From positions 1 through 64,000 of the forward strand of contig JACRCW010000026.1 in the NCBI GenBank assembly GCA_016218805.1: 64,000 nt of DNA. Reading direction: 5' to 3'. The notes under the pieces are model-generated. The model was not told the DNA's origin. It saw nothing but the letters and a program-made list of their open reading frames with translations, and did no database searches. Every line of letters begins with the position of its first letter. Within the stretch, counting starts at the first letter, position 1. The translations under genes were made by a program, and so were the position numbers. The DNA is from Deltaproteobacteria bacterium (lineage in GTDB: Bacteria > Myxococcota > JACRCW01). This document shows positions 28,565-64,000 of this stretch, piece after piece.

Positions 28565-31267
28565 GTGGCAACCCTGACGCCGTTTGCCCTGTCGCTTGGC
28601 CCGGGTGGTGACGTGTCCGTGGACGCGCTGCCGCCGGAGGACTCCACGCTGCCTGAGGACGTGGCCCGGGAGCTGGCCGCGGCGTTTGCACCCGGGAGCG
28701 GCGCGGGGCTGTTGCGTTTGGGCGCGGCGCACCGGGCCACCAGCCTGCCGCCCTCCGCCGCGTACTGGCGTGACCTGGCCGCGCAGTTCATGCACGCGCT
28801 GTGCGCGCTGCCCGGACTGGACCTGCTGTCCGCGGATGTGGAGGTGCCCTGGGCGGGTGAAGCGCCTGCCACGCTGGCGGAGCGTGGTCCGCCCATGCGC
28901 GGGCTGGAATACCTGGACGCCGCCGTGCTGCAGCGCGCCTGGCAGGCCATGCAGGACGCGCTGCGGCGGGCCGTGGGTGGCACGGGCCAGTCGGTCCAGG
29001 CGTGGCTGGGCGCGCAGGCGCCGCAATGGAACCAGGTGGGGCGCGTGTGCTTCCACCTGGCGGAGAACAAGCAGGATGAAACGCGGCCTTTTGCGTTCCT
29101 GGCCACGTACACCGCGTCACTGTCCGCGCAGGGCAAGCCGCAGCACCGGCCGCTGGGCCACGCGCTGACCGAATACGCGGGAAAAGGCCACCGCCAGGGA
29201 CTGTTGGCGCTGCTGCTGCCGGTGCAGAAGGCGGCGCGGTCGTCAGCGCTGGTGGCGCGCCTGCTGGATAGCGAGGAATTGTTCCAGCCGCTGCGCTGGA
29301 CGCCGGCGGAGGCGCACGCGTTCCTCAAGGATGCGGCATTGCTGGAGGAGTCCGGCGTGCTGGTGCGCGTGCCCGACTGGTGGCGGCGGCGGGCCCCGGC
29401 GCGCGTGGGGGTACAGGTCACGCTGGGCGCGGGCGCACCGTCCCGGCTGGGGCTGGAGGCGTTGCTGGATTTCAAGGTGAATGCCGCGCTGGACGGCGAT
29501 CCGCTGACCGCGGCGGAGTGGAGGCGGGCGCTGGCGTCCACGGACGGACTGGTCCGGCTCAAGGGACAGTGGGTGGAGGTTGATGCGGCGCGCCTGCGTG
29601 ATCTGATGGAGCACTGGCAGCGCGCGGAACGCGAACATGCGGACGGCGTTTCATTCCTGGAGGCGATGCGGCTGGTGTCCCGTGCCCCGTCCGCAGTGGC
29701 CGCCGCGGACGACGCCGAGAGCGCGCGGTGGACGGACGTCACGGCGGGCCCGTGGCTGCGCACGCTGCTGGAGGGCGCGCGCGCGCCGGAGGCGCTGGCG
29801 GCGGTGCGCCCGGGCAAGGACCTCAAGGCGAGCCTGCGCCCCTACCAGGACGCCGGGGTGCGGTGGCTGGGGCTGCTCAACGCGCTCAACCTGGGCGCGT
29901 GTCTGGCGGATGACATGGGATTGGGCAAGACCGTGCAGGTGCTGGCGCTGCTGCTGGCCCAGCGGTCCACCCGGCGCGGGACGCACCTGCTGGTGGTCCC
30001 CGCGTCACTGGTGGGGAACTGGCTTGCGGAAATGGAGCGTTTTACCCCCACGCTGCGCGTCATTGCCGTGCATTCTTCCGTCACCCCGGCGGCGGAGCTG
30101 GAGACGCTGGGACCGGCCGCGGTGGCGGACCAGGACGTGGTCCTCACCACGTACGGCATGCTCAACCGGTGCGCGTGGCTCAAGGACGTGGCCTGGGACA
30201 CGCTGGTGGTGGACGAGGCCCAGGCCCTCAAGAACCCCGGCGCGCGGCAGACGCGTGACGTCAAGGCGCTGCGGGCGCGCGCGCGCATTGCGCTCACCGG
30301 CACGCCCGTGGAGAACCGCGTGGGGGACCTGTGGTCCTTGTTTGACTTCCTCAACCCCGGCCTGCTGGGCACCCCGCGCGAATTCAAGGCATTCCTCAAG
30401 CGCCTGGGAGAGGGCGAACACGCGGATTACACGCCGCTGCGGTCCCTGGTGCGCCCCTACGTGCTGCGCCGGATGAAGAGCGACAAGCGCATCATCGACA
30501 CGCTTCCCGACAAGACGGAGGTGCGGCTGGCGTGCGGCCTGGTGAAGGAGCAGGCGGCGCTCTACCAACGCGGCGTGCGTGAGCTGGCCGAAGCGTTGGC
30601 GAAGAACCGGGAGGGGATCCAGCGCAAGGGCATGGTGCTGGCCTACCTCATGCGCTTCAAGCAGGTGTGCAACCACCCCTCACAGTGGCTGGGAGACGGG
30701 CGGTTTGCCCCCGCGGACAGCGGCAAGTTCCTGCGGCTGACAGAGCTGGCGGCGGACATTGCCCAGAAGCAGGAGAAGGTTCTGGTGTTCACGCAATTCC
30801 AGGAGATGACCGCGGTGCTGCATGACCTGCTGGCCGGTGTGTTCGGGCGGCCGGGCGCGGTGCTGGACGGCAAGACGCCCGTGAAGGCGCGCCAGGAGCG
30901 CGTGGCCCGGTTCCAGGAGGATCCCTCCGTGGGGTTCATGGTGCTCTCCGTCAAGGCGGGCGGCACCGGCCTCAACCTGACGGCCGCTTCGCACGTCATC
31001 CACTTTGACCGGTGGTGGAATCCCGCCGTGGAGAACCAGGCCACGGACCGTGCCTACCGCATTGGGCAGCACCGCAATGTGATGGTTCACAAGTTTGTGT
31101 GCCGCGGGACGGTGGAGGAGCGCATTGACGCGCTCATTGAATCCAAGCAGAAGCTGGCGCGGGACCTGCTGGACGCAGCGGGCGAAACGCTGCTCACCGA
31201 ACTGCAGGACGACGAGTTGATCCGCCTGGTCCAGTTGGACCTCGCCACGGCGCTTGAGGAGACCTGA
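28565..31267 (+). CDS. SNF2-family helicase/ATPase
   Basis: LRPYQ, LADDMGLGKT, DEAQ, LTGTPVEN, KAGGTGLNL, DRWWNPAVENQATDRAYRIGQ. Start codon uncertain (28526-28565). Confidence 0.93.
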   Translation: MATLTPFALSLGPGGDVSVDALPPEDSTLPEDVARELAAAFAPGSGAGLLRLGAAHRATSLPPSAAYWRDLAAQFMHALCALPGLDLLSADVEVPWAGEAPATLAERGPPMRGLEYLDAAVLQRAWQAMQDALRRAVGGTGQSVQAWLGAQAPQWNQVGRVCFHLAENKQDETRPFAFLATYTASLSAQGKPQHRPLGHALTEYAGKGHRQGLLALLLPVQKAARSSALVARLLDSEELFQPLRWTPAEAHAFLKDAALLEESGVLVRVPDWWRRRAPARVGVQVTLGAGAPSRLGLEALLDFKVNAALDGDPLTAAEWRRALASTDGLVRLKGQWVEVDAARLRDLMEHWQRAEREHADGVSFLEAMRLVSRAPSAVAAADDAESARWTDVTAGPWLRTLLEGARAPEALAAVRPGKDLKASLRPYQDAGVRWLGLLNALNLGACLADDMGLGKTVQVLALLLAQRSTRRGTHLLVVPASLVGNWLAEMERFTPTLRVIAVHSSVTPAAELETLGPAAVADQDVVLTTYGMLNRCAWLKDVAWDTLVVDEAQALKNPGARQTRDVKALRARARIALTGTPVENRVGDLWSLFDFLNPGLLGTPREFKAFLKRLGEGEHADYTPLRSLVRPYVLRRMKSDKRIIDTLPDKTEVRLACGLVKEQAALYQRGVRELAEALAKNREGIQRKGMVLAYLMRFKQVCNHPSQWLGDGRFAPADSGKFLRLTELAADIAQKQEKVLVFTQFQEMTAVLHDLLAGVFGRPGAVLDGKTPVKARQERVARFQEDPSVGFMVLSVKAGGTGLNLTAASHVIHFDRWWNPAVENQATDRAYRIGQHRNVMVHKFVCRGTVEERIDALIESKQKLARDLLDAAGETLLTELQDDELIRLVQLDLATALEET

Positions 31268-31270
31268 ACG

Positions 31271-32065
31271 ATGTACTGGAGCGACTGGACACCCCGCCCC
31301 ACCGTGGCACAGCGCCGCGCGCTGGCAGCCAAGGAAACCAGGAAACGCGCGCGCAAGGGCGAGACGCTCTCCCCCGTGGAGCCCATTGCGGGCCGCCAGG
31401 TCGCCGAGTCGTTCTGGGGCCAGGCCTGGTGCACGCACCTGGAGGGCCACGCGGATTACAGCAACCGGCTGCCGCGCGGGCGGTCCTACGTCCGCAACGG
31501 CTCCGTGCTGGACCTGAAGATCGCCGCCGGGAAGGTGCACGCGCTGGTGCAGGGATCTTCGCTGTACACGGTGGAGGTGACCATCCGGACGCTGGCGCCC
31601 AAGCGGTGGAAGGACCTGGTGGCGCGCTGTGCCGGACGCGTGGACTCGGTGGTGGAACTGCTGCGCGGCTCCGTTTCCGACGAGACCTTGCGTCATCTCA
31701 CGGACCGCAAGACCGGCATGTTCCCCGCCCCGGCGGAGATGTCATTCTCATGCAGCTGCCCGGACTGGGCGGACATGTGCAAGCACGTGGCCGCGGCGCT
31801 GTACGGCGTGGGCGCGCGCCTGGACCGCGCTCCGGAGCTCCTGTTCACCCTGCGCAACGTGGACCAGGCGGAGCTGGTGAAGACCTCCGTGGGGCTGGGC
31901 CGCAAGCAGGCCCGCGCGGCGCACGCGCTGCAGGGCGCGGACCTGGGCGCGGTGTTTGGGATTGAACTGGAGGGCGGCGCCCCGGCCGCCCCGCGCGCGC
32001 GGCGAGCCGCCCCGGCAAAGAAGAAGGCGCGGAAGAAGGCGGCGGGGACGCGCCGGGCCAGGTGA
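31271..32065 (+). CDS. SWIM zinc-finger protein
   Basis: RLPRGRSYVRNG, CSCPDWADMCKH; starts 3 bp after the SNF2 gene. Confidence 0.9.
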   Translation: MYWSDWTPRPTVAQRRALAAKETRKRARKGETLSPVEPIAGRQVAESFWGQAWCTHLEGHADYSNRLPRGRSYVRNGSVLDLKIAAGKVHALVQGSSLYTVEVTIRTLAPKRWKDLVARCAGRVDSVVELLRGSVSDETLRHLTDRKTGMFPAPAEMSFSCSCPDWADMCKHVAAALYGVGARLDRAPELLFTLRNVDQAELVKTSVGLGRKQARAAHALQGADLGAVFGIELEGGAPAAPRARRAAPAKKKARKKAAGTRRAR

Positions 32066-32375: not shown

Positions 32376-33758
32376 CTACGCGCCCGGCTTGCGGCCCGCG
32401 CTGCCGCGCGAAATGCCGAACTTCTCCATGCGGTAGACCAGGATGTGCCGCGGCACGCGGAGGAAGCGGGCCGCCGCGGAGAGGTTGCCGCCATTGTGCT
32501 CAATGGCGTGGATGACCACGGCCTTCTCCAGCTCCTCCAGCGAAATACCGTCCGCCGGCAACCGCAACCGCGCCGGGTCCAGCTCCAGCGGCTCCGCCGC
32601 CATCGCGGGCGCGTCCTCGGCCGGCAGGTCGGTGGCGTCTAGGACGTCAGCGCGGCGCAGGGCCACCATCCGCTCCGCCACGTTGCGCAGTTCCCGCACG
32701 TTGCCGGGCCAGGCGCGCGCCTCCAGCGCGGCAAACAGGGCCGGGGTCACCTTCAGATCCGGGCCGCCGAATTGACGTACGTACCGGCCGAACAGCACCG
32801 GGATGTCCTGCCGGCGCGCGCGCAGCGCGGGCAGGCGCAGCGGCACCACGGAGAGGCGGAAGAACAGGTCCTGCCGGAAGCGGCCTTCGCGCACCAGGGA
32901 GGCCAGGTCCTGGTGCGTGGCGGCGATGATCCGCACGTTGACCGCAATGCTCCCGCCGCCCACCACGTCCACGCGGCGCTCCTCCAGCACGCGCAGCAGC
33001 TTGGCCTGCAGGGCCTCGTCCAGATCACCAATCTCGTCCAGGAACAGCGTGCCGCCGTCCGCCGCGGCAAACCGGCCCTGCCGCTCACGCGTGGCGCCGG
33101 TGAACGCCCCGCGCGCGTGGCCAAACAGTTCGGACTCCAGCAGGTCGCGCGGGATGGCGGCGCAGTTGAGCGCCACCAGCGGGGAGGCGGCCCGGTCGCT
33201 GCAGCGGTGGATCTCGCGGGCAATCACCTCCTTGCCCGTCCCGCTCTCGCCCAGCAGCAGCACCGTGGCGGAGGTCTGCGCCACCTGCCGGGCCTGCTGC
33301 AGCACCTCGCGCATGGACGCTGACACCGCAATGATCTCGTCGTGTTCAGTCACCCGCTGCTTGAGGCGCGCGTTCTCCGTGGCCAACCGCCAGTGCTCCC
33401 GCGCCTTGTCCACGGTCAGCAGCAGCTGGTCCTTGTGGAACGGCTTGGACACAAAATCGAACGCGCCCTTGCGCATGGCCTCCACCGCCAGCTCCACGCT
33501 CCCAAACGCGGTGATCATCAGCACCGGGGTCTGCGGGGCCAGGCGGCGCGCCGCGGCCAGCACCTCAAACCCGTCCGCGCGCGGCATCTTCACGTCGGTG
33601 ATCACCACCGCGGGCGGCGGCTGGTCGGTGAGGAACGCAATGGCCTCGGCGCCGTCAGCGCAGCGGATGACGTCACAGCCGGCGTCCCCCAGCTGGAAGG
33701 CAATCACCTCGCGCAGGCTGGGGTCATCCTCCACAACGAGCACGCGGTCACCCGGCAT
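32376..33758 (-). CDS. Sigma-54-dependent NtrC-family response regulator
   Basis: REC domain (VEDD, TDVKMP, KPF), [38 protein letters not shown]-terminal Fis-type HTH. Confidence 0.95.
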
Positions 33759-34965
33759 GGTCCCCTCCCGCAGCGGGCAGGTCCAACCGCAGCCGCGCAC
33801 CAGGCCCACCGCCCACCAGGCGCAGGTGGCCACCGTTGGCCTCCGCCAGCGAGTGGCTCACCGCCAGCCCCAGCCCGGTCCCCGTGTCCTTGGTGCTGAA
33901 GAACGGTTCAAAGATGCGTTCGGCCAGCTCCGGAGGAACACCCGGTCCGTCATCCGTCACGTCCACCACAACGCGGTCCCCGGCGGCGCGGGTCACGCGC
34001 ACCGCCACGTGGCCAGCGCCACCCAGCGCCTCCACCGCATTGATGACCAGGTTGAGCAGCACCTGCTGCACCTGCCCGGGATCCGCCCAGCAACGCGCGT
34101 CACCCGCCAGGTGCTCCACGGTCACCTCCGTCCGGGCCAGTGCCGCCTTGGGCGCCACCAGACCCACCACGCTGTCCACCACCTGGTCCAGGTCCACCGT
34201 GCGCGGGTCCGGGCGCGGCGGGCGGGCAAACTGCAGGAACGACGTCAGCACCCCGTTGAGCCGGTCCAGTTCCTTCAGCATGATCTCCGCCATGGCGTGC
34301 TTGCGGTGCCCGTCGGGAAAATCCTCCGCCAGCACCTCGGCGGCGCCGCGGATGGAACCCAGCGGATTGCGCAGCTCATGCGCCAGCCCGGCGCTGAGAC
34401 TCCCCAGCGCGGCCAGCTTCTCCGTGCGCACCAGCTGCTCCTGCACCGCTTCACGCGCGGCCAGCACCTGGCGCAGTTCTGCGGACAACGCCTCCGCGCG
34501 CGCCAGCGCCCGCGTCCACCGCTGGGACAGCAGCCCGGTCACCGCTCCCACGCCGTGGAACATCACAATCTCAAAGAACTTCTCCGTGGTGGAAGACGGG
34601 TCACTGGCCACCGCCATCCCCAACACGTGGATGTGCGCCTGGTGCTCAATGTCCCCGTGGTGGTGCCCCATCATGAACGCGTGCGGCGCGTACAACAGCG
34701 AACACCCCACCGCCGCCAACAGACCCCCGCGCGCACCCCAGGTCACCGCCGCCACGACGATGGGCAGGTAATACAGACGGCGGAACAGATCATGAAGCGC
34801 CCGGAGGTCCGGCCCGGTGAGGTAGTGCGCTGCACTGATCAGCAACGCGCCCGCGGCAACCGCCGCCAGCAACCCGGCGCGGTCCATGGGGGACGCCGCC
34901 GCGGGCGCCATGACGACGGGAACGGGCCCGGGCGGAGCAGGCTGGAGCAGCGGGGAGACAGACAT
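33748..34965 (-). CDS. Membrane sensor histidine kinase with His-rich sensor region
   Basis: TM segments with [21 protein letters not shown] and the loop [25 protein letters not shown]-box, DDGPG, FFSTK, GTGLGL. Start uncertain. Confidence 0.92.
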
Positions 34966-35096
34966 GGGTGCACGCACGTTAGTACGTTGGGTCCAGTGTG
35001 GCGTGCAGGTTGACCGGCATGCATCCGCCCCCCACCCGACGAGCCGTGCCGGCTCGTCGACCTCCCCCCGCAAGGCGGGGGGAGGCAAGCCGGGGC

Positions 35097-35993
35097 TCAA
35101 TGCGCGTGCGTGGCGGGCATGACCTCAAAGCGGTAGTTCGCCTCGTCGTCGGCGTCGCCGCCGGTGACCACGCAGTTGAGGTCATCCGTGAAGCCGACCT
35201 TGAGCCAGTAGGTCCCGGTCTCCATGAACATGTGTTTGGCGGTGTAGAGGCCCTTGCCCGCGTAGGTGGGCACCAGCGCCTCCACCACCACCGACTGCGC
35301 GCCCGTCCCGGACATCAGCGTCACGGTGGGCAGGTTGGACTGCAGCGCCGCCGGCAGCAGGTGGTCAAACTTGTTGGTCCACGGCTGCGTCGTGTTGATG
35401 GTCTCGTTGAACGAGCGCATCAGCTCGATGTTGAAGGTGACGTCCGTCCCGCTGGCCAGGATGATGGGCTCGGTGGTGTTCCACCGGATCTGGAACGCGT
35501 ACTCGTAGTCCGCATCCGCGTCGTTGCTGCAGAAGTAGTTCTCACCGCCGGCGCGTGAAGTCTCAAATGCGAACGCCGCAGCGTAGTGGTTTCCCTCCTC
35601 CTGGAACTCCACGCCGACGGTGTACGCCCCGAACGCGGTGAACATGGTGGTCCACTCATAGGTGCCGTCACCCTTGTCCTCCAGCACCCCAGCAGCCGGG
35701 GCCACCGTCTGCGTCTGGGTCGCCTTGGTGTCGCGGTAGGCCACATTGACCGGGAGGCCAGCCACCTTGGCGCAGCTGGTCACGTCCGTGTGGTCCGTGC
35801 ACTGCGCCATGTCATAGACGGTGAACACCACCTTGACGGACTTGAGGATGTGCGCGTGAACCGTCCCCACCTCCACCCGGTAGTCCTTGCGCGGCGGCAT
35901 CTCCATGCTGCCGCTGCCCGCCTGCTCCATGCAGGAGGCAAATGCGAGTGAAATGAGAACGGCGAGCGCCGCCTTGGCTGCGTGCTGCATCAT
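35097..35993 (-). CDS. Lipoprotein with two YtkA/FixH-like Ig-fold domains (putative metal chaperone)
   Basis: Lipobox FASC, Met-rich N-terminus (SMEMP), HAH motifs at both ends, two GxY-x-F-x3-GxY-type repeats (GDGTYEWTTMFTAFGAY; GKGLYTAKHMFMETGTY). Confidence 0.6.
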   Translation of the reverse strand: MMQHAAKAALAVLISLAFASCMEQAGSGSMEMPPRKDYRVEVGTVHAHILKSVKVVFTVYDMAQCTDHTDVTSCAKVAGLPVNVAYRDTKATQTQTVAPAAGVLEDKGDGTYEWTTMFTAFGAYTVGVEFQEEGNHYAAAFAFETSRAGGENYFCSNDADADYEYAFQIRWNTTEPIILASGTDVTFNIELMRSFNETINTTQPWTNKFDHLLPAALQSNLPTVTLMSGTGAQSVVVEALVPTYAGKGLYTAKHMFMETGTYWLKVGFTDDLNCVVTGGDADDEANYRFEVMPATHAH

Positions 35994-36017: not shown

Positions 36018-36728
36018 TCAGGCGTCCGGCGTCAGCCAGCGCCCGAGGGGAATGATGGGAAGTGCGTACAACGCGACGGCCACGAGTCCGAAGAACCCGG
36101 CGCACACCAGCGGCGACCATTGAATGACCCGCCAGACCTGGTCACCGACCACGGGCCGGTAGCCGCCCACGGTGGGGAAGTTGCTGGGCGAGGTGGACCA
36201 CAACAGCGCCCACGCCACCACGTGGCCGGCGGCCAGCGCGGTGGCCATCCAGCCCCACGGCGGCGCGGTGATGACCGCCAGCGCCACCTTTCCCGGCGAC
36301 GCGCGCGGTTCGGCGGGGGGCACTGCGGGAGCCGGGGCCGGGGCCACCTCAGGCACCGGTGCGGGCGCAGCGGCCGCTGGCGTCATCTCCACCTCCACGC
36401 GTGTGACCACGCCCTCCTGCACCACCAGTTGGCGCTCCACGGACCCTCCGCCCGGAACGTCCACCCGGAGCGCGTGCGGGCCCACCGCCACACCCTCAAC
36501 GCGCAACGGCGTCACGCCGACGGGCTGTCCATCCACGGTCACCGCCGCCCCGGGCGTCCCCGTGGCCACCTCCAGGGTCCCGACGGGTGCCGGCGCTGCG
36601 GCGGCCTCAGGCGGTGGCGGCGGGGGAGTCACCTCCGCCTGCGCTCGGGCCGCACCGACGGTAAGCAGTGCAAATCCCGTCACAAGCCAACGCACTGCCC
36701 AACCGTTCTTGCGCGTTCCCGACGCCAT
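36018..36728 (-). CDS. PEGA-domain membrane protein
   Basis: Signal peptide, GTLEVATGTPGAAVTVDGQPVGVTPL PEGA motif, C-terminal TM helices. Confidence 0.75.
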   Translation of the reverse strand: MASGTRKNGWAVRWLVTGFALLTVGAARAQAEVTPPPPPPEAAAAPAPVGTLEVATGTPGAAVTVDGQPVGVTPLRVEGVAVGPHALRVDVPGGGSVERQLVVQEGVVTRVEVEMTPAAAAPAPVPEVAPAPAPAVPPAEPRASPGKVALAVITAPPWGWMATALAAGHVVAWALLWSTSPSNFPTVGGYRPVVGDQVWRVIQWSPLVCAGFFGLVAVALYALPIIPLGRWLTPDA

Positions 36729-36954: not shown

Positions 36955-36970
36955 TGGCACATGGCTTGCG
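36955..36970 (+). promoter_or_regulatory. Sigma-54 promoter TGGCACATGGCTTGCG (rightward)
   Basis: Matches TGGCAC-N5-TTGC; 31 bp upstream of the cupredoxin ATG, which has a [10 protein letters not shown]. Confidence 0.8.
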
Positions 36971-37000: not shown

Positions 37001-37612
37001 ATGGTGCGTCACGCAAGCAGAATGGGAGTGATACTGGGCTGGGCCGTCCTGGTGGCGGGGCCCGCGCTGGCACAGGCCCCTGCCGCGGGCGGCGCGCTTG
37101 CCGGCGAAGTGGCCGCAAAACCCGCGAAATACCGCGAGCACGTGGTGGTCAGCGTGGAGAAGGTGCCCGGTGCGTTCCGGCCGCCGGCGCAACCGGCGCA
37201 GTACGATCAGCGCGGCATGCAGTTCATCCCGCACGTGATGGCGGTGGTCCGCGGGACCACGGTGAAGTTTCTCAACAATGACAATGTCAGCCACAACGTC
37301 TTCACGCCGGACGGAGACAAGTACAACCTGGGAACGTGGGGCCAGGGCCAGTCACAGACGCGCGTGTTCCCGCGGTCCGGCGTGTACCGGCAGCTGTGCA
37401 ACGTGCATCCCGAAATGGAGGGATTCATCGTTGTGCTGGATAACCCGTATTTCGCGGTCACCGGCGCGGACGGGCGCTTCCGGATTGAGAACATCCCGCC
37501 GGGCACGTACACGGTGCGCGCGTGGAGCGAGAAGCTGGCGGGCGCCACGCAGCAGGTCACCATCACGGCGGGTGGTGCGGCCACCGCGCGGTTTGAGCTC
37601 AAGAAGCCATGA
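37001..37612 (+). CDS. Secreted cupredoxin-fold (type-1 copper) protein with C-terminal carboxypeptidase-regulatory-like domain
   Basis: Signal peptide; VKFLNNDNVSHNVF and CNVHPEM supply His/Cys/His/Met ligands; DGRFRIENIPPGTYTVRAW. Confidence 0.85.
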   Translation: MVRHASRMGVILGWAVLVAGPALAQAPAAGGALAGEVAAKPAKYREHVVVSVEKVPGAFRPPAQPAQYDQRGMQFIPHVMAVVRGTTVKFLNNDNVSHNVFTPDGDKYNLGTWGQGQSQTRVFPRSGVYRQLCNVHPEMEGFIVVLDNPYFAVTGADGRFRIENIPPGTYTVRAWSEKLAGATQQVTITAGGAATARFELKKP

Positions 37613-38895
37613 GCCGCTCCCGGTGGACCTGGCCGGTGGCGGCCGTGGCGGTCGTCGTCATTCTGGTGGCGTGGGTGCCACCGGCAGGCGCGGTGCCATC
37701 CTTTGCGCGGCGCTACGGGACCAGCTGCCAGACGTGCCACGTGGTCTTTCCCAAGTTGACGCCCTTTGGTGAAGCGTTCCGGCGCAACGCGTACCATTTC
37801 CCGGACGGACAGGATGAGGACTACCGCCGCAAGGAACCGCAGAAGATGGGCGCGGACGGATACAAGGACGTGTTTCCGTGGGCGGTGTGGCCCGGCGAAA
37901 TCCCCGCCGACCTTCCCATCAGCGCCATTGCCGCGGGACAGGTGGTGGGGAATCCGTCAGAAACCACGCGGGACAAGAAAGTGGTCCTGGCGGGCAGTGC
38001 CAGCGTCAACGTCAATGCCACCTTTGGAGAATGGCTGGCGGTGTGGGTGGGTGCGACGGCGCGCGGCACCACCGCGGGGACGCTGGAGCTGGGGTTTGAT
38101 CGCGCGTTCTTCGTCGTGTCGCCGGGACGTGGCCCGTGGGGCAACGTGCGCCTGGGCATGATTGAACCGGGGGTGCTGAGCTTCACCACGCACCGTTCCA
38201 TTGGCCCCAACCCGTGGGTGCTCACCGCCGCCGTGGGGAACAACCAGTTTGCACTGGAGCCGGCGCAGTTTGGGGCGGAGTGGAGCGGCGTGGGCCTGGA
38301 CGGGCGCGGCACGTTCACGCTGGGCGTGGTGGATGGCGCGGGCAACCAGGTGGGTCCCCCCACCGACGTGTACGGGCGCATTGCCAGCAAGTGGGGGGGC
38401 ATGCGCCTGGATGGCGTGGAGGGTGACGGGCAGGTGCGCCTGGCGGACCCCGCACCGTGGCGCGAGTGGAGCGTGCTGGTCGGCGCGTTTGTCTATTCAG
38501 GGCGCGCCACCGTGGGCACGGAGGGAACCGCGTGGCAGACGGACCGGTTCACGCTGGCCGGCGCGGACGTCAACGCGCAACTGCGGGACGCAAACGTCAT
38601 TGCCGCGTACACGTACACGCGGAACAGCCGCCCGTTTCTGCTGGACCCGTCCCTGGGCACGGACACGCACAACGTCATGCTGCAGGTGGATTACGTGGTA
38701 TTTCCGTGGCTGGTGCCCAGCCTCCGCGCGGAGCGGCGCGTCGTGAACGGCGCGTCGCAGGACCGCGTGGCCACGTCGCTGTACGTGCTGCTGCGGGCCA
38801 ATGTGCGGACACAGCTGCTGGCGGTGGTGGAACGCGCGCCGGACAACACGGTGACCTTCAACCGCCTGCAGGCCGGGCTCACCGTTGGATTCTGA
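37609..38895 (+). CDS. Cyc2-like fused monoheme cytochrome c / outer-membrane beta-barrel
   Basis: Signal peptide then VPSFARRYGTSCQTCHVVFPKLTPFGEAFRRNAY (PxFAR, CxxCH, PxL), beta-strand-rich body, C-terminal Phe (LTVGF). Confidence 0.8.
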   Translation: MSRSRWTWPVAAVAVVVILVAWVPPAGAVPSFARRYGTSCQTCHVVFPKLTPFGEAFRRNAYHFPDGQDEDYRRKEPQKMGADGYKDVFPWAVWPGEIPADLPISAIAAGQVVGNPSETTRDKKVVLAGSASVNVNATFGEWLAVWVGATARGTTAGTLELGFDRAFFVVSPGRGPWGNVRLGMIEPGVLSFTTHRSIGPNPWVLTAAVGNNQFALEPAQFGAEWSGVGLDGRGTFTLGVVDGAGNQVGPPTDVYGRIASKWGGMRLDGVEGDGQVRLADPAPWREWSVLVGAFVYSGRATVGTEGTAWQTDRFTLAGADVNAQLRDANVIAAYTYTRNSRPFLLDPSLGTDTHNVMLQVDYVVFPWLVPSLRAERRVVNGASQDRVATSLYVLLRANVRTQLLAVVERAPDNTVTFNRLQAGLTVGF

Positions 38896-38902
38896 GGGAC
38901 TC

Positions 38903-39703
38903 ATGCCGCGCTTCCTACCCGCCCTGGTGCTGCTGCTTGCCGCGTGTGACGACGGCACCGTCAACCGCCACGTGACGCTGGAGCACCAGGCGGGCGCGTT
39001 GCCCCGCTGCACCAGCACCGTGGTGGGGGACGCGCTGCATCTCAGCGTGGACCGCATGGAACCGCTCAAGCCGGACCGGGGACTGGTGGCGTTTGCGGTG
39101 CACCATGACGCGTGGAACTGGCTGGGCGCCGTGGAGCCGGGCAGCCCGGCCACGTTCCGCGGGCAGCCCATCAGCGTCACCTGGACGGACGTGACCCAGC
39201 TGGTCATCTCCGAGGAACTCTTGACCGACACGCCCACGCAACCGGGGTCCATGGTGCACTTCCGCGGCCGGCCCGGAGAAATGCTGGGAATCGGCGCTGA
39301 GGGCGAACTCACGGAAGAGGCCGTGGCGGGCGCCTCCGCACACGCGACGACGGTGGACGATACCGTGGAGCTCACCTACGCGTTGTTGCCCGCGCCGGGT
39401 CCGGGGCGGTTCTTTGCGGCGTGGCTGTTTCCTGACGGCACCACCGCCGCCACCGGGACGCCCGGCGGGGGCGGTCACACGCACGGGCTGACCTTGGTGC
39501 AACCGCTGCTCTTGGGCCGCATCGGCACGTCAGCCACGGAGCTGTTCACCATTGATGGCGCGGTGACCGGGTATCACCAGCTGGCCATCACGCTGGAACT
39601 GGAGAACGGCGTGGCCGCGGCCGCGCTCACCAACATTGTGTTCACGGGGACGCTGCCCACGGAGGCGGCGGGCGGGACAGCCGCCGCCGCCCACGAGCAC
39701 TGA
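38903..39703 (+). CDS. Lipoprotein with His motifs (RskA-C-like fold suspected)
   Basis: Lipobox LLAAC; GHTHG and terminal AHEH; LPAPGPGRFFAAWL...LAITLE pattern. Confidence 0.6.
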   Translation: MPRFLPALVLLLAACDDGTVNRHVTLEHQAGALPRCTSTVVGDALHLSVDRMEPLKPDRGLVAFAVHHDAWNWLGAVEPGSPATFRGQPISVTWTDVTQLVISEELLTDTPTQPGSMVHFRGRPGEMLGIGAEGELTEEAVAGASAHATTVDDTVELTYALLPAPGPGRFFAAWLFPDGTTAATGTPGGGGHTHGLTLVQPLLLGRIGTSATELFTIDGAVTGYHQLAITLELENGVAAAALTNIVFTGTLPTEAAGGTAAAAHEH

Positions 39704-39714
39704 CAGGCGGACGC

Positions 39715-40209
39715 ATGGCGCTCATTGACGATCTCAAGGACCCGCCCCCGCCGGAAGAGCTGGACCGGCGGCGGATGCTGACGCTGCTGGGGACCGGTGC
39801 GCTGGGCGTGGCCACGGCGGGCGCCACGGTGGAGACGCTGCACTTCCTGGAGCCCGCGGTGGTGTACGAACCGGAACGCCGCGTCGCCGTGGGGCGGCCG
39901 GGCGATCTCAGCGTGGGCGCGGTGAAGGTGGTGGCGTCGCACCGTTTGTACGTTGTTCGTGAGCCGGCCGGCGTGTTTGCGCTCTCCGCGGTGTGCACGC
40001 ACCTGGGGTGCATCACGCGGTGCCGCCCGGACCGGACGGGCTTTGACTGCCCGTGCCACGGCAGCCGCTTTGCGCTGGATGGGTCCGTGCAGGCCGGTCC
40101 CGCGCCGCGCCCGCTGCGCCGCCTCCACGTTGAAGTGGACCAGGACACGCTGGTGGTGGACGCGGCCCGGGTGATTGCGCCCGGATCCCTGCTGCGGGTG
40201 CCCGCATGA
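39715..40209 (+). CDS. Rieske 2Fe-2S subunit
   Basis: Tat-like RRRML plus TM; CTHLGC and CPCHGS boxes. Confidence 0.95.
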
Positions 40210-40940
40210 AGACGCTGGCGGAGCGCATTGCGGACAGCCCCCTGTGGAAGTCCATCATCCGGCACGGCTACCCGGACACCAACAAGAACCGGTCCTTGCT
40301 GGTGTTCAGCAACCTGTTCCTGCACATCCACCCGGTGAAGGTGCGGGCGCGCGCCATTGCGTTCTGGCGCACGCTGTACCTGGGCGGGCTGAGCGCCGCG
40401 CTGTTCTGGGTGCTGACGCTCACCGGGTTGCTGCTGATGTTCTACTACCGGCCGGCAGTGCCGCAGGCGTACCAGGACATGAAGGACCTGGAGTTTGTTG
40501 TCACGCCGGGGATGTTCCTGCGCAACATGCACCGGTGGGCCGCGCACGCCATGGTGGCATTTGTGTTTGTGCACATGGCGGTCACGTTCTACCGCGGCGC
40601 CTACCGCCACCCGCGTGAATTCAACTGGGTGATCGGCGTGGGGCTCCTCGTGGGGACGCTGCTGCTCTCCTACACGGGCTACCTGCTGCCGTGGGACCAG
40701 CTGGCCTATTGGGCGGTGACGGTGGGCTCCAACATGGCGGAGGCCACGCCGCTGTGGGGTGACCAGATCAAGCTGCTGCTGCTGGGCGGCCGCTCCATCG
40801 ACGAGCCGACGCTGATCCGGTTCTACGTGCTGCACTGCGTGGGACTGCCACTGGTGGTGGTGGTGGGAATCGCGCTGCACATCTGGCGCATCCGCAAGGA
40901 CGGCGGGCTGCACCTGCCACCGCGGGAGCGTGCGCCGTGA
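40206..40940 (+). CDS. Cytochrome b N-terminal (b6-like) subunit
   Basis: RNMHRWAAH...[22 protein letters not shown]...LHIW; four heme-b His ligands present. Confidence 0.95.
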
Positions 40941-41608
40941 CGGGTCCCTCCACGCCCGCCACCGCGGCCCAACCGCGGCCACCGGAGCGCGCGCCGGACG
41001 ACGACGAAGGGCAGGCCATGACGTTTCCGCACCTGCTGGTGCGCGAAGTGGTGGCGGGCCTGGCGCTGTGCATCCTGCTGGTCTGGGTCTCCGTGCTGTT
41101 TGATGCACCGCTGGAGGAGATTGCCAACCCGGACAAGACGCCCAACCCGGCCAAGGCGCCGTGGTACTTCCTGGGGCTGCAGGAACTGCTGCATTACTAC
41201 CCACCGGTCATTTCTGGCGTGTTCATGCCGCTGCTCGTCGTGGTGCTGTTGGCCATCATCCCGTACTTTGACATGAACCACCTGCGCGCCCCCATGTGGC
41301 GCGGTGACCGGCGGACCACCGCAGGCCGCGCGTGGCTGGCCATCCTGGTGCTGACGGCACTGCTGCTGTTCACCGGTGCGCACCCGGTGTGGCCGCTCAT
41401 CATCCCGCTGTGGCTCACGGGGCTGGGTGCATCCGCGGGAGCGGTGCGGTGGGAAAGCGCGGCTTTCCGCTGGCTGGGCGCGCGCAGCGTCGCGTTCTGG
41501 GCGTTCACCTGGTTCCTGCTGTGCTCGGTGGCGCTCACCGTGGTGGGCGTGTGGTTCCGCGGCCCGGGGTGGAGCTTCACGCTCCCGTGGGTGGACGGGG
41601 TGTTTTGA
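40937..41608 (+). CDS. Cytochrome b C-terminal (subunit IV-like) protein
   Basis: [28 protein letters not shown] (PEWY-equivalent), multiple TM helices, RGPGW. Confidence 0.92.
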
Positions 41609-43566
41609 TGGAACGGCCGCCCGCACCGGACCTGCACCTGGGTGCCCTGCTGCGGGCGTTTGCCGTGCTTTCCATGGTGCTCCTGGTGAGCCTGGTGGTG
41701 GCGGCGCGCGTGAGCCGGCAGACTGAATGGCGCGCTATCCAGGAGCGCTACAACGCGCGCGCGACAGCCGCGGGAAAAGCACCCATTCCCGTCGGCATCC
41801 AGCAGACGTGGCGGCCGGAGCTGGGCATCACGGACCGCTGCGGCAGTTGCCACCTGGGCATGGTGGGTGCACCGCTGGAGGGGGACGCGCTGTTCGCCGC
41901 GCATCCGCCGGTGGTCCACGCGCCGCGGGAGTTGGGTTGCACCGTGTGCCATGGCGGCCAGGGCCGCGCGACAACCCGGGAAGCCGCGCACGGCAACGTA
42001 CGTTTCTGGGACGAGCCCATGCTGGCGCGCGCGGACTTCCAGGCCGGGTGCGGCAGCTGCCACACCCACGTGCGCCTCCCCGCCCCCGCGCTGGCGGCGC
42101 GCGGGGCCAAGGTGGTGGAGGAGCAACAGTGCGGTGCGTGCCACCAGGCAACGCGGCGGCTGGATACGGTTGGATTGCGCGGAATCACGCCGGACTGGCA
42201 CGAGCGTCACATTGGCCTGGTGGAGGGCGAGTTTGGCTTTGCCCCGCTGCCCGACGAGGATCTCCCCGCGGTGGACGCGTTCCTGGCCACGCGCGTGGGT
42301 GCGCCGCGCCTGGTGGAGGCCCGCCTGCTGATGGAGAGTCTGGGCTGCCGCGGCTGCCACCGCATTGGCGGGGCGGGTGGCGAGGAAGGCCCCGACCTTT
42401 CCTCCGTGGGGCGCAAGCCGGCGGGAGATTATGACCTCACCGAGGTGCGCGGACCGCGCACGCCCCGCCAGTACCTGTACGAGCACTTCCTGGAGCCGGG
42501 ACGGCTGGCCCGCAACAGCCGGATGCCCGCGCCCGCCGTGACGCCCCACCAGGCGGATCTGCTCACGTTTGCCATGCTGGCGCTGCGTACGCGCCCGCTG
42601 CCGGAAGCGTTGCTGCCGCGGGACCGCGTCCGCGCGGTGAAGCTGGGCGAGCGCGACTTCCCGACGGACGGTGAGTCCCTGTTCCGCTCCTTCTGCAGCG
42701 GCTGCCACGGGGCGCAGGGTGAAGGCCGCACCTGGGCGCCGGTCCCCGCGGTGATGCCCGGCATTGGCCGCGCCGAGTTTCTGGCGCTGGCGGATGACAC
42801 GTTCATCCGCAAGGCCATCACCGACGGGCGGCCGGGCCGCATGATGCCGGCCTGGGGGAGCATGGAAGGCGGGCTGCGCCGTGCGGAGATCGACGCGCTG
42901 GTGACCTACGTGCGCACGTTGCAGCCCGCGGCGGTGGCGTACGACGCGGTGCTGGCGGCGGCGCCGGATCCCGCGCTGGGGCGGGAGGAGTTTGCGCGCT
43001 CCTGCGTGCCGTGCCACGGCGAGCACGGCGAAGGCTCACCCATTGCGCCGCCGCTGGCCGCACCGGACAACCAGGCGGTGCGCAGTGACAACGCCATCTA
43101 CGGCACGCTGGTCAACGGCGTCGCCGGAACCGCCATGGGCGCATTCCGGCAGTTCAACGCGGTCACGCTCAGCTCCCTGGTGGCGACGGTCCGGGCCCTG
43201 CCGCCGGTGGCGGCCTCCCGCACCGCCTGGAAGCCCGCGCGCGGGGACGCCGCCGCCGGCGCCGCGCTGTTCGGGAAGCACTGCGGCACCTGCCACGGGG
43301 ACAACGCCGTTGGGAAGGAGGGGCCGGCGCTCTCCCATCCCGCGTTTCAGGCGGCCGCGTCTGACGGGTATCTTGCCGCCACCGTCATCCGCGGGCGGCC
43401 ACAGGCGGCCAAGGCCATGCCCGGATTTGGCCAGGCCGGCCCGGACCACGCACGCCTGTCACCTGACGACGTGGCCGCGCTGGTGGCGTTCCTGCGCGGC
43501 CTGGTGGCCCCGGCCGGAACCGAGCACCCCGCGCCCGCCCAGGCCGGGGACACCCGTCTCCCGTAG
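41608..43566 (+). CDS. Membrane-anchored octaheme cytochrome c
   Basis: Eight CxxCH motifs: CGSCH, CTVCH, CGSCH, CGACH, CRGCH, CSGCH, CVPCH, CGTCH; N-terminal TM; TGATG coupling to the previous gene. Confidence 0.93.
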   Translation: MERPPAPDLHLGALLRAFAVLSMVLLVSLVVAARVSRQTEWRAIQERYNARATAAGKAPIPVGIQQTWRPELGITDRCGSCHLGMVGAPLEGDALFAAHPPVVHAPRELGCTVCHGGQGRATTREAAHGNVRFWDEPMLARADFQAGCGSCHTHVRLPAPALAARGAKVVEEQQCGACHQATRRLDTVGLRGITPDWHERHIGLVEGEFGFAPLPDEDLPAVDAFLATRVGAPRLVEARLLMESLGCRGCHRIGGAGGEEGPDLSSVGRKPAGDYDLTEVRGPRTPRQYLYEHFLEPGRLARNSRMPAPAVTPHQADLLTFAMLALRTRPLPEALLPRDRVRAVKLGERDFPTDGESLFRSFCSGCHGAQGEGRTWAPVPAVMPGIGRAEFLALADDTFIRKAITDGRPGRMMPAWGSMEGGLRRAEIDALVTYVRTLQPAAVAYDAVLAAAPDPALGREEFARSCVPCHGEHGEGSPIAPPLAAPDNQAVRSDNAIYGTLVNGVAGTAMGAFRQFNAVTLSSLVATVRALPPVAASRTAWKPARGDAAAGAALFGKHCGTCHGDNAVGKEGPALSHPAFQAAASDGYLAATVIRGRPQAAKAMPGFGQAGPDHARLSPDDVAALVAFLRGLVAPAGTEHPAPAQAGDTRLP

Positions 43567-43643: not shown

Positions 43644-44675
43644 ATGATTGAACACATCCTGCGCGAGTCCATCCCCCCGTTCCGCGCGTTCCTGGAGGAG
43701 CCCACGCCGGCCATGTTCCGCCGGGCCATGGCGGCCTTCCTGGAGATCATGGATGACGAGGAGAAGCACTCCGGCCCGGACGGGGCCTGGAAGGCGTTCA
43801 AGCTGGCCAATGTCTCACTGCCCGTGAACAAGAACACCGTGAAAGGGTGGGCCACCGGCAAGATGCCTGAGGACCCGGTGGCACTGGTGGAGAGCATCCT
43901 CGCGCACTTCCACAAGCAGGGCATCGTGTACCGCTCGTCAGGAAAGAAGGCGGTGGACCAGGCGTTTGGCAAGCCCATGACGTCCACGTCCGCGGCCGCG
44001 GCCGCCGCGGCGCTGGAGCACAGCCCGTTCAACCCGCCGCGCACCAATGCGGGCGCCCCGGAGGCGGCGGCCGTTCCCACCAGTGCGGAACAGGACGCTG
44101 CGGCGGACCTGCAGCACCGCATGGCCGCCCTCCCGTACACGGACCTGATGGACGGCGCGCTGCGCTGGCAGGGTGACCCGCAGGTGCCGCCCGCGCTGTT
44201 CTCCCAGTACCTGCGGGCCACGCGTGACCGCCTCCCGCCGGACGCCATTGAACGCGTGATGGCGCCGCTGGGCGTGGGCGCGCACTACTTCCAGCGCTGG
44301 TGCCTGCTGGCAGAGGGCCGCCCCTCGCCGGATACCGCGTGGCCGGACCCCATGTTCCAGGCGCGCGTGATGCGCCAGTACCTGGCGTTCTTTCTCGTCG
44401 TGGAACTCAACCTGCCCGCGCAGAACCAGCAGCAGTACGCCTACCGGCTGTACGGCGCGCTGTTCCTGCTGTCCCCGGATGACGTGGAGCGCGCGTGCCT
44501 GCTGGCGCGCTCACGCGAGCCCGCGCCCGGTGCCTGGAGCGGGATCACGCCGGACCTGCTGCGCTCCTGGGCGGCCACCCCGCCCGCCATCACGTGGGAC
44601 ATTCCGCTGCTGGAGGCCATCCAGGCGGCGCTGGCGGAGGCCCTGTACACACGCTTCCGCGAGGCCCGCTGGTAG
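43644..44675 (+). CDS. Hypothetical two-domain protein
   Basis: 343-aa GC3-rich ORF with an Ala/Pro linker; VNKNTVKGWATG is weakly HTH-like. Confidence 0.65.
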   Translation: MIEHILRESIPPFRAFLEEPTPAMFRRAMAAFLEIMDDEEKHSGPDGAWKAFKLANVSLPVNKNTVKGWATGKMPEDPVALVESILAHFHKQGIVYRSSGKKAVDQAFGKPMTSTSAAAAAAALEHSPFNPPRTNAGAPEAAAVPTSAEQDAAADLQHRMAALPYTDLMDGALRWQGDPQVPPALFSQYLRATRDRLPPDAIERVMAPLGVGAHYFQRWCLLAEGRPSPDTAWPDPMFQARVMRQYLAFFLVVELNLPAQNQQQYAYRLYGALFLLSPDDVERACLLARSREPAPGAWSGITPDLLRSWAATPPAITWDIPLLEAIQAALAEALYTRFREARW

Positions 44676-63776: not shown

Positions 63777-64000
63777 GTTGCCTCCGGTTCCCTGCCGTTG
63801 ACCGGCAGCATGATGCTGAAGGTGGCGCCGTGCCCGGGTGCGGACTGCACGCGGATGCGCCCGCGGTGCCGCTCCACCACCTGGTGCGCAATGGACAGGC
63901 CCAGGCCCGTGCCCGTGGCCACCTTGGTGGTGAAAAACGGGTCAAAGATCTTCTCCAGGTGCGCGGCGTCAATCCCGCTGCCGTTGTCCTGGAACTCCAG
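63773..64000 (-). CDS. Sensor histidine kinase, C-terminal HATPase part (partial)
   Basis: Manual translation DNGSGIDAAHLEKIFDPFFTTKVATGTGLGLSIAHQVVERHRG; ATGA overlap with the regulator. Confidence 0.9.
   Translation of the reverse strand: MEFQDNGSGIDAAHLEKIFDPFFTTKVATGTGLGLSIAHQVVERHRGRIRVQSAPGHGATFSIMLPVNGREPEAT

What the first reader, a model, noticed from the sequence alone, without database searches (positions are those of the whole stretch)
37001..43566. Cyc2-like cytochrome-porin wired to a cupredoxin, a Rieske/cytochrome b complex and an octaheme cytochrome in one operon
Seen: seven tightly coupled genes (ATGA/GTGA/TGATG overlaps or gaps of 11 bp or less) encode a type-1 copper protein, a beta-barrel with N-terminal PSFARRY-x3-CQTCH-x3-PKL, a His-tailed lipoprotein, Rieske, split cytochrome b and an 8-heme cytochrome. 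Known: PxFAR-CxxCH-PxL fused to a porin is the Cyc2 signature. In Acidithiobacillus, Cyc2 works with the cupredoxin rusticyanin, and a separately encoded bc1 complex handles uphill flow. Inference: this operon alone could span outer membrane, periplasm and quinone pool. It would be a trans-envelope electron conduit in an apparently myxobacterial host, used either for electron uptake from Fe(II)/metals or for quinol-driven export to reduce a metal. The direction cannot be read from sequence.
Basis: partly seen in the sequence, partly recalled or inferred. Interest (0 to 1): 0.9.

Follow-up and report, generated by a model that had tools for sequence, protein, structure and literature searches.

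The report
Cyc2 haem-porin wired to quinone pool
Seven linked genes in an uncultured myxobacterium-like microbe encode an outer-membrane haem-porin of the 'iron-oxidase' type, a blue-copper protein and a membrane respiratory complex, which together look like an electrical wire across the cell envelope that may export electrons to dissolved metals rather than take them in.

Summary
The seven genes are tightly coupled (gaps -4 to 11 nt) behind a sigma-54-type promoter motif. They encode a type-1 copper protein, a one-haem 16-stranded porin (pLDDT 89), an unknown lipoprotein, a Rieske protein, split cytochrome b (APWY) and a modular 8-haem cytochrome c.

The link is conserved. Of 51 related loci with at least 7 kb downstream, 50 carry the cupredoxin and 47 a quinone-side module: 41 Rieske/b (30 with an NAD(P) flavoprotein, absent here), 3 ACIII/Qrc-type, 3 Fe-S membrane type. 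No oxidase gene was found in the 80 loci.

Direction is not shown. The nearest non-Cyc2 relatives of this bc module precede a periplasmic nitrate-reductase-like enzyme, the host has menD, and no RuBisCO or CdhC was found. I therefore favour quinol-to-outside export (0.45) over Fe(II) feeding a shared pool (0.25) or uphill uptake (0.2).

Corrections: the 8-haem protein is not an OTR/HAO enzyme, and the copper protein is not shown to be rusticyanin. The lipoprotein has a conserved HxH tail and may load copper. Cyc2 cluster assignment was untestable. Nine paper searches found no description. This scan noted the operon family before on other DNA (11 findings).

The parts
36955..36969 (+). Sigma-54-type -24/-12 promoter motif, 31 nt before the first ATG
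   Evidence: Only exact match in the 64 kb window; 0.36 expected by chance anywhere. Not generally conserved: 7 of 78 upstream regions vs 8 of 155 controls with a relaxed pattern. Function inferred.
37001..37612 (+). Periplasmic type-1 copper protein (cupredoxin plus CarboxypepD_reg-like domain), 203 aa
   Evidence: Pfam Copper-bind and CarboxypepD_reg above cut-off. C133, H136, M139 invariant and H98 at least 90% conserved in 69 homologues. Present in 50 of 51 informative loci.
37609..38895 (+). Cyc2-like fused monohaem cytochrome c-porin, 428 aa
   Evidence: AVPSFARRY-x3-CQTCH-x3-PKL; AF2 pLDDT 89 with 16 strands; porin fold matches; 518 relatives in GTDB genomes.
38903..39703 (+). Lipoprotein of an unnamed family: two beta-sandwich domains, His/Met-rich linker, conserved C-terminal HxH; possible copper-loading accessory
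   Evidence: 89 profile hits; 42 of 44 with E<=1e-30 end in HxH. AF2 pLDDT 88. Weak fold likeness to Cu,Zn-SOD/CCS domain (best Z 8.7, rmsd 2.9, 100 aligned) and to RskA_C. Function inferred.
39715..40209 (+). Tat-exported Rieske [2Fe-2S] protein, Ser/Phe type
   Evidence: RRRML, CTHLGC and CPCHGSRF motifs. Nearest solved structures are the Kuenenia Rieske proteins 9rk4 and 9rk3.
40206..40940 (+). Cytochrome b6-like subunit; His109/123/210/225 as likely haem ligands; no haem ci Cys
   Evidence: Pfam Cytochrome_B; ExtP model 251 bits, below cut-off 290; His positions (ligand assignment by recalled spacing).
40937..41608 (+). Subunit IV-like C-terminal cytochrome b part with APWY Qo motif
   Evidence: Pfam Cytochrom_B_C; APWY at residue 74; APWY in 44 of 45 homologues.
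41608..43566 (+). Membrane-anchored 8-haem cytochrome c: N-terminal helix, 3-haem c7-like module, five class-I domains
   Evidence: Eight CxxCH; Pfam C7, Cytochrom_C and CBB3 domains; conserved M306, M413, M510; the fourth-haem domain lacks the Met of relatives.
35097..35993 (-). Divergent lipoprotein with His-rich tail, weak YtkA-like hit; travels with this Cyc2 clade
   Evidence: 42-45% identical to genes in Cyc2 loci L003, L073, L101; Pfam YtkA E=0.024, below cut-off.
33748..34977 (-). Sensor histidine kinase with a His-rich loop; candidate metal-responsive regulator (start codon uncertain)
   Evidence: HisKA and HATPase_c; best NCBIfam AtoS/ZraS, below cut-off; His-rich loop seen in the sequence.
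32376..33833 (-). Sigma-54-dependent response regulator; candidate activator of the operon (start codon uncertain)
   Evidence: Response_reg, Sigma54_activat and HTH_8. The link to the promoter is inferred.

Best explanation
The operon builds a series electron wire between the menaquinone pool and the cell surface, most likely running outward. Menaquinol is oxidised at the APWY site of the Rieske/cytochrome b complex. The high-potential electron passes from Rieske to the anchored 8-haem cytochrome, then to the soluble type-1 copper protein and the haem of the Cyc2-like porin. There it reduces a small, dissolved, high-potential acceptor such as chelated Fe(III), Mn(III) or Cu(II). The HxH lipoprotein probably loads or holds copper. 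The divergent two-component system probably switches the operon on through sigma-54. Shown: gene content, motifs, folds, conserved linkage. Inferred: co-transcription, order of carriers, direction, substrate, accessory roles.
For: (1) 47 of 51 informative loci pair porin and cupredoxin with a quinone-side module of one of three kinds. No haem-copper oxidase gene was found in L001-L080. (2) Modules are exchanged within Cyc2 clades. L042 (ACIII/Qrc-type) nests among flavoprotein-bc loci (support 0.998), and the window's clade (0.998) holds both bc and Fe-S membrane types. (3) The closest cytochrome b relatives without Cyc2 (68-71% identity; sister to window+L001, support 0.985) lie in operons that continue into a Tat-exported NapA-like molybdoenzyme. 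The same module therefore sits before a probable electron sink. (4) The host has menD. The nearest solved Rieske proteins titrate at +303 and +335 mV (PMC12954380), which favours forward turnover. (5) No RuBisCO or CdhC was found in the 92% complete genome. (6) An outward chain bc1-cytochrome c-rusticyanin-Cyc2 has been proposed for Fe(III) reduction in A. ferrooxidans (PMC8790237). Cyc2 homologues occur in Fe(III)-reducing taxa (PMC6344600).
Against: The three biochemically tested Cyc2 proteins oxidise Fe(II) (PMC8406198). Cyc2PV-1 sits at +208 mV, below a +260 to +335 mV Rieske, so the outward chain would climb. APWY has been linked, by proposal only, to reverse operation (PMC4122944). The swapped molybdopterin-type modules score best, below cut-off, against the menaquinone reductase QrcB/QrcC models, which points inward. 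The NapA-like neighbour is below the NapA cut-off (338 vs 904 bits), and one of its two copies is truncated. This is the only Rieske/b pair found in a host with a cbb3 oxidase, so it may be needed as the general complex III. 4 of 51 loci have none of the three modules.
Confidence: 0.45

Rival explanations
1. Convergent model: the Rieske/b complex runs forward as the cell's complex III, and Cyc2 oxidises Fe(II). Both load a shared pool (cupredoxin, 8-haem cytochrome) that is drained by cbb3 oxidase, Nap or an NO reductase encoded elsewhere. This would be mixotrophic iron oxidation.
For: Fits the known Cyc2 chemistry and its +208 mV potential. The host has a cbb3 oxidase, a NapA-like enzyme and a second haem-copper enzyme, no bd oxidase was found, and only one Rieske/b pair was found. 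The 8-haem C-terminal domains resemble CcoP. It also fits the Nap-linked sister operons.
Against: It does not explain why two parallel donors stay co-operonic in 47 of 51 loci while the sink is not in any of 80 loci. In A. ferrooxidans the recalled arrangement is the reverse: cyc2 lies with the oxidase.
Confidence: 0.25
2. Inward uphill wire: Fe(II) to Cyc2, cupredoxin, 8-haem cytochrome and Rieske, then a reversed Q-cycle driven by proton motive force that reduces menaquinone (and NAD(P) in the flavoprotein-bearing relatives).
For: Mirrors the Cyc2-rusticyanin-bc1 uphill route (PMC13741234). APWY in 44 of 45 homologues was proposed to mark reverse operation. The swapped modules are Qrc-like. 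30 of 41 bc loci carry an NAD(P) flavoprotein.
Against: The window has no flavoprotein, and its best genome match is only 30% identical. No carbon-fixation marker was found. The menaquinone pool lies far below a high-potential Rieske. Sister modules precede a NapA-like enzyme. PMC4122944 states that no APWY complex had been characterised.
Confidence: 0.2
3. Metal handling rather than respiration: quinol-driven reduction of Cu(II) or another metal(loid) at the outer membrane for uptake or detoxification, like the selenite/tellurite phenotype of the Geobacter ext cluster.
For: His-rich sensor kinase, two His-tailed lipoproteins and a conserved HxH tail. Best NCBIfam hits of the cytochrome b parts are ExtP and ExtQ. 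An extI mutant reduces selenite and tellurite less well (PMC5877670).
Against: The HxH lipoprotein was found in only 8 of the 80 named loci plus L101, all among the closest relatives. Ext models are below cut-off, and ExtI has no haem.
Confidence: 0.07
4. Loose co-regulation of respiratory genes with no direct electron path between the porin and the bc complex.
For: 4 of 51 loci lack a quinone-side module. Close bc relatives occur without Cyc2. G037 has its Cyc2 and its close bc on different contigs.
Against: Overlapping stop/start codons, conservation across at least six phylum-level labels and repeated module replacement.
Confidence: 0.03

Closest known systems
Cyc2 fused cytochrome-porins (A. 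ferrooxidans Cyc2, Leptospirillum Cyt572, Mariprofundus Cyc2PV-1; PMC8406198)
   Same: Signal peptide, single N-terminal CxxCH, upstream PxFAR motif and downstream PxL at the published spacing, 16-stranded porin, over 365 aa.
   Different: Arg replaces Gln/Lys in the motif. It is co-operonic with a quinone-side complex, not with a terminal oxidase. Cluster and activity untested.
A. ferrooxidans rus + pet system (Cyc2, rusticyanin, CycA1, bc1)
   Same: Same functional order: haem-porin, blue copper protein, cytochrome c, Rieske/b. Both inward and, by proposal, outward use are described (PMC13741234, PMC8790237).
   Different: One operon here. Split b6-type cytochrome b with APWY (PPWY there), menaquinone host, 8-haem cytochrome instead of c1/c4, two-domain amicyanin-like copper protein.
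Kuenenia Rieske/cytochrome b complexes Kuste4569-74 and Kustd1480-85 (PMC12954380)
   Same: b6-like split cytochrome b, multihaem c partner, and the closest solved Rieske proteins; 30 of 41 related bc loci also carry the NAD(P) flavoprotein.
   Different: The window has no flavoprotein and no haem ci Cys. The paper passages read describe no haem-porin or cupredoxin partner.
Geobacter extHIJKLMNOPQS cluster (PMC5877670)
   Same: Published precedent for a porin, Rieske, split cytochrome b and multihaem cytochromes in one cluster; best NCBIfam hits are ExtP and ExtQ.
   Different: ExtI carries no haem, the published gene list has no cupredoxin, and scores are below the Ext cut-offs.
Rieske/cytochrome b genes inside nap clusters (Caldithrix abyssi, PMC5317091)
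   Same: Rieske/b proposed as quinol oxidase for a periplasmic terminal reductase; the window's sister modules L143 and L144 have this layout.
   Different: Here the far end is a cupredoxin and an outer-membrane haem-porin, not a molybdoenzyme.

Membership tests
Cyc2 | Signal peptide and a single N-terminal CxxCH | tested here: met
   Hydrophobic stretch 5-23; one CxxCH at 40-44. No SignalP run.
Cyc2 | AXPXFAR[Q/K][T/Y] motif upstream of the haem (PMC8406198) | tested here: inconclusive
   AVPSFARRY matches 8 of 9 positions, with Arg for Gln/Lys. 78 of 116 aligned homologues have K/Q-Y (Ala or Ser allowed after Phe) and 33 have R-Y.
Cyc2 | PxL four residues after CxxCH; length at least 365 aa | tested here: met
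   PKL at 48-50; 428 aa.
Cyc2 | 16-stranded porin C-terminal to the haem | tested here: met
   16 strands in the AF2 model; Foldseek top hits are general porins, E about 1e-12; ESM Atlas row 2 is Porin_O_P at 12% of members.
Cyc2 | FeGenie HMM score and cluster 1/2/3 placement | not testable with these tools
   No Cyc2 HMM or labelled reference set was available, and the figshare files of PMC8406198 were not seen. Cluster 3 is my recalled expectation only.
Cyc2 | Fe(II) oxidase activity | not testable with these tools
   Needs protein.
APWY-clade Rieske/cytochrome b complex | Rieske boxes, split cytochrome b with four haem His, APWY Qo motif, Ser-type Rieske | tested here: met
   clade definition in PMC4122944. 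No tree with that paper's references was built.
Cytochrome b6f proper | CxGG haem ci motif; cytochrome f | tested here: not met
   RTLYLGGL, no Cys; a CxGG form in 1 of 49 homologues (6 unparsed). NCBIfam b6f models below cut-off.
Anammox-type NAD(P)-linked Rieske/b complex | FAD/Fe-S NAD(P) oxidoreductase gene in the operon | tested here: not met
   Absent from the operon; best genome match 30% on another contig. Present in 30 of 41 related bc loci.
Geobacter Ext (ExtP/ExtQ, ExtI) | NCBIfam ExtP/ExtQ cut-offs; haem-free porin | tested here: not met
   251 vs 290 and 53 vs 150 bits; the porin here has a haem motif.
Type-1 (blue) copper protein | His, Cys-x2-His-x2-Met ligand set in a cupredoxin domain | tested here: met
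   H98, C133, H136, M139; Pfam Copper-bind above cut-off.
Rusticyanin | Sequence relationship to rusticyanin | tested here: inconclusive
   The 46 PDB hits at E<=0.01 include amicyanin, plastocyanin, pseudoazurin and NirK cupredoxin domains; rusticyanin is not listed.
Catalytic octahaems (OTR, ONR, HAO) | Family profile match and single multihaem catalytic fold | tested here: not met
   Pfam, NCBIfam and PDB give c7-like, class-I and CcoP-like domains only.
Copper chaperone (CCS/YtkA-like) for the 38903 lipoprotein | Chaperone fold with a conserved copper-binding tail | tested here: inconclusive
   HxH conserved; SOD/CCS-like fold Z 7-8.7, near the noise level stated by the tool; RskA_C is a competing lead.

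The most novel reading that the evidence does not exclude
A widespread clade of Cyc2-like haem-porins in heterotrophic Myxococcota, Ignavibacteria, Acidobacteriota and candidate phyla acts as a terminal reductase for dissolved metals. It plugs through one cupredoxin into interchangeable quinol-oxidising modules (Rieske/b, ACIII/Qrc, Fe-S membrane protein). In the flavoprotein-bearing majority, metal reduction would drive NAD(P)H formation by quinol bifurcation. A gene used as an iron-oxidation marker would then often mark the opposite reaction.
Probability: 0.3. Interest if true: 0.85.

Novelty: new variant of a known kind. Interest (0 to 1): 0.64.

Why it matters
cyc2 is used as a marker for iron oxidation, yet PMC8406198 calls the function of the divergent cluster 3 homologues the most uncertain. 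This operon supplies the missing partners for one large clade (518 relatives in GTDB genomes) and makes direction testable with a self-contained gene set. If flow is outward, many metagenome calls of 'iron oxidiser' in soils, peat and groundwater would need revising. If inward, it is a one-operon uptake chain in heterotrophs. It is also a compact, flavoprotein-free example of the APWY Rieske/b class, for which PMC4122944 (2014) reported no biochemistry.

Tried and rejected
Complex prediction of porin + haem + cupredoxin gave no verdict (score 0.02, mark 0.32) and is not used as evidence. No RNA holder was listed for the region, so no reads were laid. Pfam, NCBIfam and PDB sequence searches name nothing for the porin. 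A plasmid search matched only the N-terminal 35-42 residues in 9 records and gave no cluster label. A single-sequence search with the lipoprotein found only itself; the profile search found the family. Foldseek gave no match at E<=0.001 for the lipoprotein. No sigma-70 promoter or convincing terminator was found. The sigma-54 motif is not enriched across loci. The futalosine MqnA/D family was not found. The ATP citrate lyase search was uninformative because the control was silent. My first synteny count (48 of 58) admitted short loci only if bc was seen, so it was replaced by a fixed 7 kb rule (41 of 51). Rejected: catalytic octahaem, true b6f, and Ext orthology. The second Rieske hit in the genome is a flavoprotein fusion, and the second cytochrome b is Fe-S-fused with no Rieske hit on its contig. 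Dibrova et al. 2013 was not held.


Full report
Observation. Junction gaps are -4, 7, 11, -4, -4 and -1 nt. G+C is like that of the flanks. An exact sigma-54 -24/-12 motif lies at 36955-36969, 31 nt before the first ATG. It is the only match in the window, with 0.36 expected anywhere by chance. A sigma-54 activator and a kinase with a His-rich loop lie divergently at 32376-34977. The motif is not enriched across relatives (7 of 78 vs 8 of 155 controls), though L003, L005 and L069 carry a similar one 165-183 nt before the PxFAR codon. Co-transcription is inferred, not measured.

The porin. P0002 has no Pfam, NCBIfam or PDB sequence match. It has 386 homologues among the 8000 candidates scored. 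I aligned it with 115 of the 119 other listed hits, leaving out three short and one long sequence. AlphaFold2 gave pLDDT 89 and 16 long strands, with the haem segment 27-39 poorly modelled. Foldseek matched general porins. Against the definition in PMC8406198 (passages; section 13) it meets the single CxxCH, PxL, length and barrel criteria. It matches 8 of 9 positions of AXPXFAR[Q/K][T/Y], with Arg for Lys; 78 of 116 homologues have K/Q-Y. I call it Cyc2-like. Cluster placement could not be tested; that paper's figshare files and Fig. S8 were not seen and bear on it.

The other parts. P0001 has H98, C133, H136 and M139, conserved in 69 aligned homologues (69 of 76 found), plus a second beta-sandwich domain. 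Its PDB relatives include amicyanin, plastocyanin and pseudoazurin. The Rieske protein has a twin-arginine motif and the Ser/Phe signature; 36 of 50 homologues share GSxF and 13 have GSxY. PMC4122944 (passages and section 13) classes S-F as about +260 mV. The nearest solved relatives, from Kuenenia, were measured at +303 and +335 mV (PMC12954380 passages). Cytochrome b is split, lacks the haem ci Cys and has APWY, as in 44 of 45 homologues. The 8-haem protein is an anchor helix, a 3-haem module and five class-I domains, not a catalytic octahaem. The lipoprotein defines an unnamed family of 89 hits, and 42 of the 44 strongest end in HxH. It folds into two beta-sandwiches with weak likeness to Cu,Zn-SOD/CCS (best Z 8.7) and to RskA_C. 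A copper-loading role is a guess from the tail and the His/Met linker. The divergent lipoprotein at 35097-35993 is 42-45% identical to genes in three other Cyc2 loci, so it probably belongs to the system.

Conservation. A scan of GTDB genomes found 518 relatives, of which the best 80 were kept. Of the 79 with the motif intact, 51 have at least 7 kb downstream. Among these, 50 have the cupredoxin and 41 have Rieske plus cytochrome b, 30 of them with a FAD/Fe-S NAD(P) oxidoreductase (Pfam). Three have an ACIII/Qrc-type module, three an Fe-S membrane protein with a COX2-like copper/cytochrome c protein, and four have none of these. The bc form occurs in records titled Myxococcota/Deltaproteobacteria, Bacteroidota/Ignavibacteriota, Acidobacteriota, Eisenbacteria, Krumholzibacteriia and Calditrichaceae. 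Kin are not independent, and the 438 more distant loci were not seen. No haem-copper oxidase gene was found in L001-L080; one lies by a distant homologue in L109. Among 61 genomes of the host's phylum, 13 have a family match. The three closest carry the ACIII/Qrc or Fe-S membrane module beside the porin, not bc. On a FastTree tree of 86 porins, L042 (ACIII/Qrc) nests among flavoprotein-bc loci, and the window's clade holds both bc and Fe-S membrane types (each 0.998, midpoint root). The porin-cupredoxin front end is constant while the quinone-side partner is exchanged. This is the best evidence for a functional link to the quinone pool.

Direction. A reciprocal search with subunit IV over 251 phylum genomes gave matches in 50; I read five of these neighbourhoods. 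The two closest (cytochrome b 68-71% identical) read flavoprotein, Rieske, b, subunit IV, 8/9-haem c and a Tat-exported molybdoenzyme, with no Cyc2 hit. The intact one scores best as NapA, though below cut-off, and keeps a NapA-like Cys motif; the other is truncated. On a cytochrome b tree they are sister to the window and L001 (0.985), inside the flavoprotein-bearing group (0.894). Their multihaem proteins are 39-41% identical to the window's, against 25-26% for three other Cyc2-linked ones. I infer that this lineage lost the flavoprotein, and that the module normally feeds an electron sink. The host (92% complete) has menD, a cbb3 oxidase, a NapA-like enzyme and one NrfD. No bd oxidase, RuBisCO or CdhC was found, and only one Rieske/b pair. 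An outward bc1-rusticyanin-Cyc2 chain has been proposed for A. ferrooxidans (PMC8790237, passages), and Cyc2 homologues occur in Fe(III)-reducing taxa (PMC6344600, passages). Against export: tested Cyc2 proteins oxidise Fe(II), and one sits at +208 mV. APWY was proposed to mark reverse flow, and the swapped modules score best as menaquinone reductase Qrc subunits. I give export 0.45, convergent Fe(II) input with a forward bc 0.25, uphill uptake 0.2, metal handling 0.07 and no coupling 0.03. That ACIII and NapH-type proteins oxidise quinol, that menaquinone lies near -70 mV, and the rus operon layout are recalled, not from a call.

Comparison and novelty. Every module is known. The nearest published systems are the rus/pet chain (PMC13741234, passages), the Kuenenia complexes, the Geobacter ext cluster (PMC5877670, passages) and Rieske/b genes in nap clusters (PMC5317091, passages). 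Nine searches listed no paper that appears to describe this operon. I also read passages of PMC10654088, PMC7029218, PMC9386147 and bioRxiv 10.1101/2022.05.06.490989 without finding it; other listed papers were seen as listings only. Subscription papers on bc gene neighbourhoods (Dibrova 2013, not held; ten Brink 2013, seen only as a citation) and all supplements were not seen. This scan holds 11 earlier notes on the same operon family, 8 of them shown, mostly the flavoprotein form. They are AI notes; my synteny result preceded them and agrees. The module swapping, the Nap-linked sister clue and the HxH lipoprotein family do not appear in the lines shown. Verdict: real, conserved, a new variant assembled from known parts, with direction and substrate open. 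Interest 0.64.

Noticed in passing
L143:5525-18496 and L144:6197-14582: Operon of NAD(P) flavoprotein, Rieske, split cytochrome b, 8/9-haem c and a Tat-exported NapA-like molybdoenzyme (with moeA/moaA-like and NapH-like genes in L143). It looks like an anammox-type bc complex tied to nitrate reduction in the host's phylum.
   Followed up: partly
G000 C154:6956-14328: Haem-copper superfamily gene with Gln at the usual cross-linked Tyr position (recalled as eNOR-type), a second COX1-like gene, an Fe-S-fused cytochrome b and a monohaem c.
   Followed up: partly
G000 C36, C54, C89: Four open frames with 30-33 CxxCH motifs each.
   Followed up: no
window 62403-64000 and C146:65680-69127 beyond the window: Two-component pair next to 12-, 3- and 7-haem cytochrome genes at the contig end.
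   Followed up: no
G000 C42:25116-36402: DMSO-reductase-family molybdoenzyme with Fe-S subunit, TorD-like chaperone and 3-haem cytochrome beside arsR/arsD/arsA/acr3-like genes (names read from sequence by recall).
   Followed up: no
L109:3028-9000: A distant Cyc2 homologue beside a haem-copper oxidase gene and cytochromes c, unlike the main clade.
   Followed up: no
L071:8421-11353; L068:7545-9400: Tandem Cyc2-like genes in L071; a second Rieske/cytochrome b pair just upstream of the porin in L068.
   Followed up: no
L018:14337-14705 (also L036, L038, L058, L068): A 122-aa Cys-rich protein with no Pfam hit, between Rieske and cytochrome b in four loci and beside the operon in L068.
   Followed up: no
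L003:12766-16678, L101:11365-15287: Third module type: two cupredoxin-like membrane proteins with CuA-like motifs, an Fe-S membrane protein with two CxxxCP motifs, and the divergent-lipoprotein homologue.
   Followed up: partly
window 28565-32065: SNF2-family helicase with an adjacent uncharacterised 264-aa gene.
   Followed up: no
window 36021-36728 and 43644-44675: A PEGA-domain protein between the promoter and the divergent lipoprotein, and an unknown 343-aa gene directly after the operon; neither has homologues in the related Cyc2 loci.
   Followed up: partly
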